From Pelagomonas calceolata (Eukaryota), in contig CAKKNE010000004.1 in assembly GCA_918797485.1 (NCBI GenBank), positions 2,852,001 to 2,916,000 of the forward strand: a DNA stretch of 64,000 nucleotides. The letters run 5' to 3'. Positions 26,459 to 32,131 of this stretch are shown here, piece after piece. The notes under the pieces are model-generated. The model was not told where the DNA came from, did no database searches, and saw only the letters and a list, made by a program, of their open reading frames with translations. The position numbers were made by a program, and so were the translations under genes. Position 1 is the stretch's first letter, and each line of letters opens with the position of its first letter.

Positions 26459-27644
26459 TCAGAAGAGGTAACACCGCGCCTCGCGCACGTTCGCGCAGGG
26501 CGGGCAGCGCACGCGGTACAGCGCGACCTGCAGAGCCAGCGCCGAGAAGAACCTGTGTGGAAATCAAATTTCGGGCGCCCCACGCCATCGACGCGATATT
26601 TTCTCCGTAGCTGCGTCTGCTCGATGGCGTGAACATTCCAGGCAACCTAACTAACTCACTGGTTGATTTCCACACAGCTCTCGACGGAATCGTCAAGTTG
26701 TCGTCGAGCAACAGCGGCTCGTACAGCTCCGTCAGCGTCGCCGTCGCCGCGGCCACGACCGCCGCGTACTCCGATAATTGCACGTCCCAGAAGAAGACCA
26801 TCGCGACCAGGAAACAGACGCAGAACATGGCCAAGCTTCCTTCCACGCTCTTCTTGCCTTCTCGGCCTAGTTTTAACGAGGCGACCTCGCCGCCGAACGA
26901 GACGCCGATCAACGCCGCGGCCATGTCGCCGAGCACTAAAAAAATAATCGCGCAGCTCGACACGTCCGGCGGCGAGACCTGCGTCGCGTGCAGGCGTCGC
27001 GTCGATGGCGTGCGGGGGTGCGGTCGCGTCGATGGCGTCGATGGCGCGTGGCGCCACCCCTACGCCATCGCCGCGACCCTACGCCATCACGGCGACGGCG
27101 TCGCTCACCGATCGCGCGCGCAGGTCGAAGGTAAACAGGTCGTGATTCGGGCACCGAACCACACAGTCATCGCCAGAGTACACCCGAGAGAAAAGTAGCA
27201 CCCGCCCGTCAACTGCTCGTGCTCGTGGTCCCGCAGGATCGTTTGCAGGGGCCAGTGCCGTGCGACGAACGGTATATGTAGCCGCGCGAGGTCCGCGCTC
27301 CAGCCTATACTCGTGATGGCCCACGCCATTAATATACATGTTCTTTGTCGAAAGCCCGCCTCGAGCAGCGCGAGGTGGATTAACGGAACTAACAAGCCGC
27401 ACAGGTGGAACGTCTTCCGCTCCAATTCGCGCAGCGCGCTCTTCACGCGCCGCAGGGGCACGCCCCATCCTCTAAGAGTTACCGACGGCCGCGGCCGCGC
27501 GCCGACGCCGCGCGGCGTGCCCAGCTTCACGCGGAACAGCAGCACGGACCCGACGGCGAGCAGCGCGACGACGACGGCGAGGTTGTACGTGACGTTGTCG
27601 AGGTCGTGCGCGTCCTGCGCCCGTTCCTCCCGCATGATCGTCAT
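26459..27644 (-). CDS. CTP-dependent lipid kinase (Dgk1/phytol/dolichol kinase-like, CTP_transf_1); exons 27644-27165, 26978-26686, 26552-26459
   Basis: ELERKTFHL, LGDMAAALIG, KKSVEGSLA and DDNLTIP motifs; two GT..AG introns (27164-26979, 26685-26553) give LAMT-VSPPDVSSCAIIF and DDNLTIP-FFSALALQ...YLF*. Confidence 0.85.
26553..26677 (-). mobile_element. Introner-like non-autonomous TIR element forming most of intron 26553-26685
   Basis: 15-bp perfect terminal inverted repeats CTGTGTGGAAATCAA/TTGATTTCCACACAG; internally similar to 29026-29143; its end supplies the 3' splice AG. Confidence 0.9.
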
Positions 27645-28159: not shown

Positions 28160-29587
28160 ATGGCGCCGCTCGTGGTGTATCTCATGTCGACGCGCTGCGC
28201 GTCGGCCACGCCATGGAACCACCGGGACCACCTGCGGACGCGCGTCGCGCCGGCGGCGGCGGCCTACGGCGCGCATTTGGAACATCCGATCGTGGCCGTC
28301 GTCGACGAGTGTGATGGTGAGGAGCTGCCGGTCTGCGAGCGGTGCGCGCCGTCGCCGCTCGCGCCCTTGGTATCGTCGGAGTGTACGAACTGCGACGGCA
28401 TCGACGTGATCGTCGCCAGCTGCCCGGGCGGCAACTCCGGCCGGGGCCCGGGCTGCAAGACGGACGCGGCGATTGCGCACTTCGCGCGCCGCTTTCCAGC
28501 TACAAACCCGGCGTGGCTCGCGTTCTCCGACGACGACATGCACTATTTCGTTCCCTGGTTCGCGGCGCTCCTCCGCTTTGTTGAAAAGGCGGGCCATTCT
28601 GCATCGGTGCCGCTGGCACTCGGGGGCCGGGACCGCAAGTTCAAGACGGAACGAATCCAGGCGTCGTTCCCCGGGTTGGGGTCGCGCACAAATCGCGCTC
28701 CCTGCCTGCTGACGGGCGCGCCGCGCATCGTGCTGCCGCTGGTGCTGTCGTCGGCGGGGGCCGAAAAGCTGGCGCCGCTTTGTTTGAACCGAGTTACCGA
28801 GAAACAGTGCGGACCGGTGTCTTTGATGCTCGCGTGGCCCAATGGACACGGCGTCGCCCTCCTAAGGCGAAGATTGCGGGTTCGAGTCCCGCCGTGAGTA
28901 CTCATGGTCCGCGCGCGCAGGTGCGGCGCGTTCCATACGACTCACGACACCTGCTTCGGCGTCGTGCTCTGGCGTCTGCAGATGAGGTACCTCCCGGTCT
29001 TCGAGGAGTGCCGGCTCGTGACGAACTGTGTGGAAATCAACCAGTGAGTTAGGTTACTAACCTCCACGCCATCGAGCCGCCGCAGTTACGGGGACGACGT
29101 CGCGTCGATGGCGTGGGGCGCCCGAAATTTGATTTCCACACAGGTGACGAACGTGCATCGCATCGGGGAAACGATCGGTGACGCCTGGCCGCTGGTCGCC
29201 GTCGACCGCGTCCACCGCGGCAGACGGCACCAGCGAGAACGGCAGACGTTTAGCGAGAACGAGAAACATTTGACCGACCACGACGCCGCGATCCGCCACG
29301 ATGGCTCGTTAGATCGCCTATCCGCGTGCGTCAATGCGACCGCCGCATCGCTGCTCGGAGACGTGCAGGGCGTCAAGCGCCCCATCGCGCCCGACGCCGC
29401 GCCGATGACGTTACAAGACTGCGGCGTCTGTCGCGACCTCTCGCCCAGCGAGCTCCAGCGGTTGCAGCACAAGCAGGCTGCCGAGGCGCGGGATCGCGTC
29501 TGCGCGCCGGGGCCGGTGCGGCGCGGCCGGATCGGCCGTATCGGGGGAGCGCGCAAACGACGACCCGTAATGTCGGACCCTCTGTAA
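28160..29587 (+). CDS. Fringe-like (GT31-type) glycosyltransferase; exons 28160-28806, 28921-29017, 29144-29587
   Basis: CKTDAAI...WLAFSDDDMHY (DxD-type motif) and, after splicing, KQCGAFHTTHDTCFGVVLWRL; both introns are GT..AG and restore one continuous frame. Confidence 0.65.
28828..28900 (+). tRNA. tRNA-Arg(CCT), located inside intron 28807-28920
   Basis: Cloverleaf: acceptor GCTCGCG/CGTGAGT+A, D-arm TGGCCCAATGGACACGGC, anticodon arm TCGCC-CTCCTAA-GGCGA, T-arm GCGGG-TTCGAGT-CCCGC; 73 nt. Confidence 0.95.
29026..29143 (+). mobile_element. Introner-like TIR element with 8-bp target-site duplication; intron 29018-29143
   Basis: TIRs CTGTGTGGAAATCAA/TTGATTTCCACACAG flanked by GTGACGAA at 29018-29025 and 29144-29151. 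Confidence 0.93.
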
Positions 29588-30907: not shown

Positions 30908-32131
30908 ATGCCGCCCGTCGAGATCGCCGCCCCACCACCATCTCCAGCGCCGGAGATCGTCGCGGCCCAGCTCGCGACCGCACCGCTCTGCCTGCCCCCG
31001 ACGTCGTGCCCCGGCTGGATCGCGCCGTGCCTGCACTCGCTGACCGTCGCCGAAGCATTAAGGCTGGAGCGGACATCAAGAAGGTGGCGCGCGTGGCTCC
31101 TGTCAGCTGACCACATCTGGCAGCAGCTCGCGGCGTCGAGCGGCGTTTCACTACGATGCGCGGGGCCGCTCGCCCCGTTCTTTCGCGTGGCGAGCTGGCG
31201 GCGCGTCTGTGTGGAATTAGTGGGCGCGCTGAGTAGGGATCTGAGGGGCGAGGACGCGTTTTTGCAGGACGCGGCGCCCGGTTGTATAGTGGAGGTCTTC
31301 GAGACCGTCTCCCCCGACCGCGAGTACACGGTACCGGCGGCGGGCGAGGTCTTCGAGCCGTCTTCAACATTCAGACCGTCTGATGTAGGAGTGCCGGTGC
31401 GGCTGCGCGATAACCAGCGCGCCTGGGCGATCAAATACAGGGTCTTGACACCGCGGACGCCGCGGTGGTGGCGCGCGGTGTGTGATGTCGATGCGGATGA
31501 TGCGGCGGCGAGGGACTTCTGCGCGGGCCTCGCGGGCCGGCACTGGGTCGCGGAGCCCGGCGGCGTCTTCACTTTCTGCGCGTCCCGCACTGTGATGAGC
31601 CGTGTGGAAATCAACTGGTCGCGTCGATGGCGTAGGACCTTGTTCACGCAGGCGACGCCGACGCACTACCGCTACGCGGCGAAGGAGTGGCGCTGGTCCC
31701 CGGACCGGCTCAACTGGACGCCCGTCACCGAATTCCTGTCGGGCGGCGTGCGGTGGCGCGCGCGCACGCTCGCCGAGGGCGACCGCCAGATCTGCCGCTT
31801 CCTCGCGCGGCGGGCGCCGGCGCCGGACGCGTGGCGCCTCGCGCCGACGTCGTGCTCCTTGGCTTATAACGCGCCGCCGCAGCGGCGGCGCGACGACGAC
31901 CGCGGCGCCCGCAGCGCGCACCGGTCGATCCGGCCGGACGCGCACGGCGGCGTGCTCGCCTTGGCGGACACGCGCGTGCAGGTCATCCACGCCTCCTTCG
32001 CGGCGCCGCGGCGCATCCTCCACGCGGAGCCGCACGTCGTCCAGGGCCACCCGGGCGGGTGGCTATGGGAAGAAGATGGGTCGTGGAGCGTCGGCCTCGG
32101 GTCCGCGGCGGACATCGTCGACGACGACTAA
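30908..32131 (+). CDS. F-box-like protein; probable in-frame 60-nt intron 31592-31651
   Basis: LHSLTVAEALRLERTSRRWRAWLLSADHIWQQL resembles an F-box; the internal GT..AG segment carries the introner TIR and core motif. Confidence 0.6.
   Translation: MPPVEIAAPPPSPAPEIVAAQLATAPLCLPPTSCPGWIAPCLHSLTVAEALRLERTSRRWRAWLLSADHIWQQLAASSGVSLRCAGPLAPFFRVASWRRVCVELVGALSRDLRGEDAFLQDAAPGCIVEVFETVSPDREYTVPAAGEVFEPSSTFRPSDVGVPVRLRDNQRAWAIKYRVLTPRTPRWWRAVCDVDADDAAARDFCAGLAGRHWVAEPGGVFTFCASRTVMSRVEINWSRRWRRTLFTQATPTHYRYAAKEWRWSPDRLNWTPVTEFLSGGVRWRARTLAEGDRQICRFLARRAPAPDAWRLAPTSCSLAYNAPPQRRRDDDRGARSAHRSIRPDAHGGVLALADTRVQVIHASFAAPRRILHAEPHVVQGHPGGWLWEEDGSWSVGLGSAADIVDDD
31592..31651 (+). mobile_element. Shortened, degenerate introner-derived intron
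   Basis: GTGATGAG + CCGTGTGGAAATCAA (TIR, 1 mismatch) + CGCGTCGATGGCGT core + CACGCAG acceptor. Confidence 0.75.

What the first reader, a model, noticed from the sequence alone, without database searches (positions are those of the whole stretch)
28807..28920. Complete tRNA-Arg(CCT) gene filling a 114-nt intron with introner-like borders
Seen: a canonical 73-nt tRNA (28828-28900) lies on the sense strand inside a GT..AG intron whose removal restores the glycosyltransferase frame (KQ-CGAFH). The intron starts GTGCGGAC and the next exon starts GTGCGGCG, a 6/8 direct repeat with the same geometry as the 8-bp TSD of the neighbouring introner. The bases after the repeat (CGGTGT) and the end (CGCGCAG) loosely echo the TIR ends CTGTGT and CACACAG. 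No T4 Pol III terminator follows the tRNA inside the intron. Inference: an intron-generating element may have captured or delivered a tRNA gene, or the tRNA may be processed from the excised Pol II intron, coupling its supply to host splicing.
Basis: partly seen in the sequence, partly recalled or inferred. Interest (0 to 1): 0.85.

Follow-up and report, generated by a model that had tools for sequence, protein, structure and literature searches.

The report
Mobile introns carrying a tRNA gene
A short intron that is spliced out of a gene of the marine alga Pelagomonas holds a whole tRNA gene, and near-identical tRNA-bearing inserts sit in six other unrelated genes and appear absent from some wild alleles, so it is likely a mobile intron that carries a tRNA gene as it spreads.

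Summary
28807-28920 is a GT-AG intron (89 sense polyA reads) holding an intact tRNA-Arg(CCT). It is not a one-off. A scan for this tRNA variant gave 33 metagenome loci; 28 hold the whole unit, donor GY-GCGGACC ... tRNA ... GGTCCGC ... CAG, inside coding frames of seven unrelated genes. Relatives read straight through the site at two genes, so it is present in some alleles and absent in others. The unit has its own 8-10 bp inverted ends. One site carries a decayed tRNA, and some of its alleles an extra tRNA-Cys. Best reading: a small tRNA-carrying introner family, likely copied via the excised intron RNA (inferred). Whether mature tRNA comes from the intron is untested. I found no published case (10 searches); this scan earlier noted decayed tRNA halves in Perkinsus introns, not whole genes.

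The parts
28160..28806 (+). Coding exon 1 of the host gene (395-aa protein, likely a GT31/Fringe-like glycosyltransferase)
   Evidence: family label only, no Pfam hit
28807..28920 (+). The whole unit: 114-nt GT-AG intron, member of the tRNA-carrying intron family
   Evidence: 89 spliced reads; family
28807..28816 (+). 5' splice site and 5' arm of the inverted repeat (GTGCGGACCG; GC donor in 24 of 28 complete metagenome copies)
28828..28900 (+). Intact tRNA-Arg(CCT), 73 nt, no CCA; A-box-like 28835-28845 and B-box-like 28879-28889 (box consensus recalled)
28904..28904 (+). Candidate branch-point A just before the 3' arm (inferred; an A lies 1-2 bases before the arm in all 31 copies with a 3' end)
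28905..28914 (+). 3' arm of the inverted repeat (TGGTCCGCGC), 6 bases short of the intron end
28915..28920 (+). Tail with the 3' splice site CAG; variable between sites
28921..29017 (+). Coding exon 2
29018..29143 (+). Neighbouring introner of the common family (8-bp TSD GTGACGAA, long inverted ends); a different family, also polymorphic
   Evidence: 151 spliced reads
29144..29587 (+). Coding exon 3 to the stop codon

Best explanation
This spliced 114-base intron with a whole tRNA-Arg(CCT) gene inside is one copy of a small family of near-identical units found in seven unrelated genes, and it is likely a mobile intron (an introner) that spreads, probably as a copy of the excised intron RNA, while carrying a tRNA gene that is likely functional. 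Shown: the unit is 112-131 bases, begins with a GC or GT donor inside an 8-10 bp arm, holds a variable spacer, the tRNA, a second spacer, the complementary arm and a CAG acceptor; it lies in the sense strand of coding exons, always before a G, and its removal joins two open frames; the window copy is spliced efficiently. Inferred: copying between genes (0.9); purifying selection on the tRNA (0.7); spread through the excised RNA, because the unit's borders are exactly the splice sites, there is no target duplication beyond one G and the 3' arm stops short of the end (0.45, against 0.3 for a DNA transposase working in trans and 0.25 for repair or ectopic recombination); release of mature tRNA from the excised intron by RNase P and RNase Z rather than by its own polymerase III transcript (0.35).
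For: Splicing: 89 reads; in run X21, 32 spliced reads against 1 of 15 intron reads of the window type at 28824. Family: 33 of 33 loci matching the tRNA variant carry at least one family end, 28 carry both, at seven sites A-G; hosts are this protein, an autoantigen-p27 repeat protein (PF06677), a homocysteine methyltransferase (PF02574), an ion channel (PF00520, below cut-off), a TRM13-type methyltransferase (PF05206), a microbial PARG (PF10021) and a 2OG-Fe(II) oxygenase (PF13640). DNA contigs of cultured runs show the flanks of sites B and F, and a consensus that fits C plus F, at about single-copy depth. Empty alleles: site A, 105 of 161 fetched proteins span the site: 44 read into the intron, 47 read straight through (9 of these still run into the downstream introner), 12 paralogue proteins read through, 2 unclear; read-through forms include a MetaClust record with a TARA 0.22-3 name and two JGI/IMG records. 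Site G, 50 of 57 proteins span the site: 48 read through, some on contigs of 7,468 and 14,402 bases, 2 read into the intron. Constraint: tRNA positions 1-44 (outside the search pattern) differ at 0 of 924 pairwise positions among 7 site-D alleles, against 0.36 and 0.30 in the spacers and 0.12 and 0.07 in the flanking exons. End helix 96% paired, with one G-C to A-U change.
Against: Splicing is shown only at site A; sites B and F were seen only as unspliced polyA reads (14 and 12 reads). I hold no DNA of an empty allele: read-through proteins can come from transcript assemblies, and the three cultured DNA runs show no joined form. The loci were chosen by a pattern inside the tRNA, so copies without this tRNA could not be seen. 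Three of 33 loci are chimeric through the tRNA (L003, L009, L013), so assembly artefacts occur. The decayed site-F tRNA is also invariant among 4 alleles (0 of 264), which weakens invariance as proof of function; gene conversion or collapsed assembly could also give invariance. The tRNA has non-standard pairs (G1-U72, G5-U68 or U5-U68, C13-C22). Whole-intron folding is not better than shuffles (z -1.0 to -2.0 for 7 copies). Only one end pair covaries (121 of 500 shuffles reach the pair count). No mobilising enzyme is identified.
Confidence: 0.7

Rival explanations
1. Same family, but a non-autonomous DNA transposon (MITE-like introner) moved in trans by a transposase that recognises the GCGCGGACC inverted arms; the tRNA is captured cargo transcribed by polymerase III.
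For: Conserved 8-10 bp inverted arms; the species has 956 putative introners with inverted repeats and GT or GC donors (PMC9481584 supplement) and a Tc1-like transposase gene; families with inverted repeats but no target duplication exist (PMC9860276); capture of a second tRNA at site F resembles cargo uptake; 4 of 32 copies have TTTT right after the tRNA.
Against: The 3' arm is not terminal (4-12 variable bases follow it), there is no target duplication beyond one G, and 7 of 7 sites are sense insertions in coding exons although the search pattern did not select for genes.
Confidence: 0.3
2. Not a self-propagating element: tRNA genes with their flanks were pasted into genes by double-strand-break repair or ectopic recombination, survived only where they happened to be spliced out, and were homogenised by gene conversion.
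For: Low copy number (about 9 tRNA-Arg(CCT) copies by depth in run X2); alleles of one site carry trailers typical of other sites (sites D and F); a 6-base match to the target at site A and G matches at +3 (5 of 7) and +5 (4 of 7) hint at microhomology.
Against: Every complete copy begins at the same base and ends at a CAG, with no gain or loss of codons, at seven sites; random repair would give ragged ends.
Confidence: 0.17
3. Ordinary old introns that independently house tRNA genes, as in Caenorhabditis; the empty forms are spliced transcripts or later intron losses.
For: Intronic tRNA genes are common and conserved in nematodes (PMC4999229); spacers differ strongly among alleles of one site, so some insertions are not very young; cultured DNA runs show no empty allele.
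Against: The introns consist of almost nothing but shared ends and the tRNA; ends are homologous across unrelated genes beyond splice signals; the 67%-identical paralogue lacks the intron; filled alleles are rare at site G, 2 of 50.
Confidence: 0.06
4. A tRNA-derived retroelement (SINE-like) in which the tRNA is only the promoter and is not used in translation.
For: A- and B-box-like motifs are kept even in the site-F copy whose anticodon arm has decayed; the acceptor stem is weaker than in ordinary copies.
Against: No target duplication and no A-rich tail; 19-33 bases of conserved sequence lie upstream of the tRNA; the anticodon arm is intact at six of seven sites.
Confidence: 0.07

Closest known systems
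Introners (Gozashti et al. 2022, PMC9860276, passages read; Gozashti et al. 2025, PMC12130899, passages read)
   Same: Near-identical introns at unrelated genes, presence/absence among alleles, own splice sites, inverted ends without a target duplication (as described for Acanthoeca).
   Different: Carries a whole, apparently working tRNA gene; the word tRNA does not occur in the main text of either survey; few copies; 3' inverted arm not terminal.
Common introner family of Pelagomonas calceolata / Aureococcus (Guerin et al. 2022, PMC9481584, passages and supplementary note read; Huff et al. 2016 not held, recalled)
   Same: Same genome, same gene, GC or GT donors, polymorphic.
   Different: That family has an 8-bp target duplication that supplies the donor and long terminal repeats ending CACACAG; this unit has neither and shows no sequence similarity above shuffles.
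Fungal introner-like elements (as summarised in PMC9860276)
   Same: No target duplication, strong bias to genes, proposed spread through spliced RNA.
   Different: They lack inverted ends and carry no gene.
Intronic tRNA genes of Caenorhabditis (Sagi et al. 2016, PMC4999229, passages read)
   Same: [quoted passage not shown]
   Different: Those sit in old, conserved introns in either orientation and are polymerase III genes; they are not the intron and are not mobile.
Intron-encoded small RNAs (snoRNAs, mirtrons, nimtRNAs PMC7722341, GUT15 tRNA-like RNA PMC6152437; search listings only)
   Same: A structured RNA filling or lying in an intron, potentially released after splicing.
   Different: Not canonical cytosolic tRNAs and not mobile intron families; release from the intron is untested here.

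Membership tests
tRNA (RF00005), Arg(CCT) | Cloverleaf with CCT anticodon above the family cut-off | tested here: met
   62.7 bits against 29; ARAGORN
tRNA (RF00005), Arg(CCT) | Matured, CCA-added and charged in the cell | not testable with these tools
   only polyA libraries were laid
Spliceosomal intron | Excised at GT..AG from the sense transcript | tested here: met
   89 reads at site A; sites B-G not tested by reads
Introner (general) | Highly similar introns at several unrelated loci | tested here: met
   seven sites
Introner (general) | Recent gain: empty sites in alleles or paralogues | tested here: met
   protein level at sites A and G; DNA of an empty allele not in hand
Introner (general) | Target-site duplication (optional feature) | tested here: not met
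   only one G shared at 7 of 7 sites, which cannot be told from splice-site preference
Introner (general) | Inverted repeat of 6 or more bases near the ends (optional feature) | tested here: met
   8-10 bp, 96% paired, but 4-12 bases inside the 3' end
Common Pelagomonas introner family | 8-bp target duplication supplying the donor | tested here: not met
Common Pelagomonas introner family | Terminal repeats CTGTGTGGAAAT / ATTTCCACACAG or sequence similarity to them | tested here: not met
   score 18 against shuffled 95th percentile 19
MITE / DDE transposon | Autonomous partner with the same ends | not testable with these tools
   no whole genome held; none in 139,914 bases of window and loci
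tRNA-derived SINE | Target duplication and A-rich or simple-repeat tail (recalled) | tested here: not met

The most novel reading that the evidence does not exclude
A self-spreading intron whose cargo is a working tRNA gene: the spliceosome cuts out a ready-folded pre-tRNA closed by a terminal stem, the cell matures it into tRNA-Arg, and the same stable RNA is copied back into other genes, so that intron gain and tRNA gene dosage spread together through wild Pelagomonas populations, with new tRNA types (Cys) being picked up on the way.
Probability: 0.25. Interest if true: 0.93.

Novelty: new variant of a known kind. Interest (0 to 1): 0.8.

Why it matters
Known introners are described as non-coding passengers. 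A family that carries an intact tRNA gene links intron gain to tRNA gene copy number, offers a benefit that could help new introns persist, and is caught in the act: filled and empty alleles coexist in a globally abundant alga that grows in culture. Because its borders are exactly the splice sites and it has no target duplication, it is a compact test case for the long-open question whether spliced introns can re-insert through RNA. The family tRNA has marker bases, so one tRNA-sequencing experiment can ask whether a canonical tRNA is made from a polymerase II intron.

Tried and rejected
No whole genome is held, so no genome-wide tRNA/intron overlap could be run. The tRNA patterns found nothing in viral contigs or prokaryote genomes; the extra tRNA-Cys and the unit's ends were not in viral contigs either. 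A protein-based metagenome scan did not complete, so DNA of empty alleles was not fetched. The broad protein search found only close relatives of the host protein, 10 hits, so no orthologue in another pelagophyte could be examined. Pfam gave nothing for the host protein. Folding energy of the introns is not distinguishable from shuffles. No further family member without this tRNA in 139,914 bases of window and loci (the six 'ends without tRNA' are the 3' arms read backwards). The GTGAGT at the tRNA 3' end looks like a donor but no listed joint uses it. Rejected: TSD reading of GTGCGG (it would match by chance at one of seven sites with probability about 0.013, or 0.056 if GC/GT drift is allowed, so microhomology remains possible); kinship with the neighbouring introner; loss of polymerase III (subunits RPC1, 2, 3, 5, 6 and a TFIIIB subunit are annotated; that table was cut when stored and no TFIIIC row was found in the part held). 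Three chimeric loci, two double-tRNA alleles and four cut-off loci were left out of alignment A1 (24 of 33 loci plus the window used). Huff et al. 2016 is not held.

Full report
Observation. The window is from the pelagophyte Pelagomonas calceolata: the spliced product of the host gene is letter for letter P0055, which its source names so. ARAGORN and Rfam place one tRNA in the window, tRNA-Arg(CCT) at 28828-28900, 62.7 bits. PolyA reads from four runs of one sample skip 28807-28920 at GT..AG in 89 reads, all sense, and skip the neighbouring introner 29018-29143 in 151 reads. Retention would stop the frame inside the tRNA. In run X21 only 1 of 15 reads inside the 5' spacer is of the window type, against 32 spliced reads. 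So the tRNA gene really fills a working intron.

A family, not a single case. Laying DNA contigs of three cultured runs on the intron showed other single-copy contigs that share not only the tRNA but the intron's ends and then run into unrelated sequence. By depth in run X2 (single copy 162-175) there are about 2 copies of the window's 5' tRNA half, about 5 of a variant with T5, T13, A22, and about 2 of a tandem variant. A scan of metagenome contigs with a 27-base pattern from the tRNA's T arm and 3' strand gave 33 loci. All 33 carry at least one family end; 28 carry both; 4 are cut off by a contig end; 1 (L013) has a diverged 5' end. The unit reads donor GC (24 of 28) or GT (4 of 28) plus GCGGACC, a variable spacer, the tRNA, a variable trailer with an A just before the second arm (31 of 31), GGTCCGC, and a short tail ending CAG. 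Single-tRNA units are 112-131 bases. Flanks sort 26 complete copies into seven sites: A, this gene (4); B (2); C (2); D (7); E (4); F (6); G (1). Two complete loci and L013 join the flanks of different sites through the identical tRNA and are treated as assembly chimeras. At each site removal of the unit joins two open frames (frames for C and E were chosen by eye), and the hosts are unrelated: PF06677, PF02574, PF00520 (below cut-off), PF05206, PF10021, PF13640. Flanks of B and F, and a two-contig consensus that fits C plus F, are in the cultured DNA; D and E were not seen among the rows shown. Splicing at B-G is inferred, not shown.

Empty sites. At site A, of 161 fetched proteins 105 span the junction: 44 read into the intron, 38 read straight through (one is the annotated spliced protein), 9 read through yet run into the downstream introner, 12 belong to a 67%-identical paralogue and all read through, 2 are unclear. 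Read-through can come from transcript assemblies; the retained downstream introner, a MetaClust record named TARA_109_DCM_0.22-3 (a DNA size fraction, from my own knowledge) and two JGI/IMG records argue that some are genomic. Filled alleles occur with (L026, L028) and without (L007, L031) the downstream introner. At site G, 48 of 50 spanning proteins (57 examined) read through, some on contigs of 7.5 and 14.4 kb, and 2 read into the unit; the cultured genome has only two copies of that tRNA type by depth, accounted for by A and B. These counts are not allele frequencies. The cultured DNA runs show no joined form at site A. I hold no DNA sequence of an empty allele.

GYGCGG begins the unit at every site, but the next exon begins GTGCGG only at site A; over seven sites intron and exon starts agree 7, 4, 5, 2, 4, 2, 1, 3 times at positions 1-8. 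So there is no 6- or 8-base target duplication; a single G is shared, which by the criteria of Gozashti et al. 2022 (PMC9860276, passages read) is ambiguous. The match at A has a chance of about 0.01-0.06 and may reflect microhomology. The unit is not similar to the neighbouring introner (score 18, shuffled median 15, 95th percentile 19). Its own inverted arms pair in 96% of cells over 8 pairs, with one two-sided change in three site-D sequences; pair-count significance is weak (121 of 500 shuffles) and whole-intron folding is not exceptional.

Is the tRNA kept by selection? Among alleles of one site the 44 tRNA bases outside the search pattern do not vary at A, B, D, E or F, while spacers (0.04-0.36) and exon flanks (up to 0.12) do; one site-C allele has lost its first bases. 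Across sites the intact tRNA differs at four positions only. Against this, the site-F copy has a decayed anticodon arm and is also invariant in four alleles, and conversion or assembly collapse can mimic constraint. AGG is 74 of 799 arginine codons in long frames of the window (rough), so about nine genes for it is generous, in line with amplification. Three site-F loci carry a second gene, tRNA-Cys(GCA), inside the same unit after a 12-base tandem repeat.

Mechanism. Shown: structure, spread over unrelated genes, splicing at A. Inferred: copying. I favour an RNA route (0.45): the unit is exactly the intron, adds no codon, has no target duplication, its 3' arm is 4-12 bases from the end, and 7 of 7 sites are sense insertions in coding exons although the pattern did not select for genes. 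A DNA route in trans (0.3) fits the inverted arms and the species' 956 putative introners and Tc1-like transposase (PMC9481584, passages of main text, supplementary note 3 and table rows read). Repair with conversion (0.25) fits the low copy number and swapped trailers. On tRNA supply: 28 of 32 copies lack TTTT before the acceptor and the window's first TTTT is 895 bases on, which suits release from the excised intron, but polymerase III is present, promoter-like boxes are intact, and ordinary tandem copies also lack TTTT in their spacer. This point is open (0.35).

Comparison and novelty. It works like an introner and meets the general features tested (repeated, spliced, polymorphic); it is not a member of the common Pelagomonas family. 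Ten literature searches and term searches in the main text of two introner surveys, one review and the genome paper found no introner carrying a tRNA gene; the library lacks most subscription journals, Huff et al. 2016 was not held, and the surveys' supplements were not searched. Intronic tRNA genes as such are known (PMC4999229, passages read). Earlier notes of this scan describe decayed tRNA halves in Perkinsus introns (unchecked); none matched this sequence. Verdict: real; a new variant of a known kind; interest 0.8.

Noticed in passing
L005:1023-1235 (-), L030:531-744, L016: Site-F alleles of 213-214 bases hold the decayed tRNA-Arg, a 12-base tandem repeat and a well-paired, A+T-rich tRNA-Cys(GCA) inside one intron; its origin is unknown (not in viral contigs).
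   Followed up: partly
reads laid on window 28833-28898: Tandem tRNA-Arg copies elsewhere in the genome appear in 36 sense polyA reads joined by a 26-base spacer with no TTTT: tRNA clusters inside polyadenylated transcripts.
   Followed up: no
L013:270-317: An eighth candidate site in a gene that looks like a cold-shock plus CCCH zinc-finger protein (recalled motifs), with a diverged 5' end; a similar leader is seen in 77 polyA reads of the culture.
   Followed up: partly
window 29018-29143: The common introner is polymorphic here, appears in opposite orientations at the same site in different alleles (P0022 versus P0031) and at the same position in one paralogue record (P0001); a further insertion site lies in exon 1 of other alleles (P0018, P0021, P0135).
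   Followed up: partly
window 29029-29143: Reads from other introner copies pile up to 300-570 per strand in polyA RNA against 15-50 on the host exons, so many introners persist in polyadenylated RNA.
   Followed up: no
window 28160-29587: Alleles of the host protein differ by 9-19% and look like mosaics of blocks, including hybrids with the paralogue (P0053, P0033); possible balancing selection on a surface-glycan enzyme.
   Followed up: no
window 26551-26680 and 31595-31650: A second common-family introner in a minus-strand gene, and a one-ended introner remnant near 31600.
   Followed up: no
window 28892-28907: The tRNA 3' strand and its trailer form a near-palindrome (sites A, B, F, G), so the trailer could compete with the acceptor stem.
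   Followed up: partly
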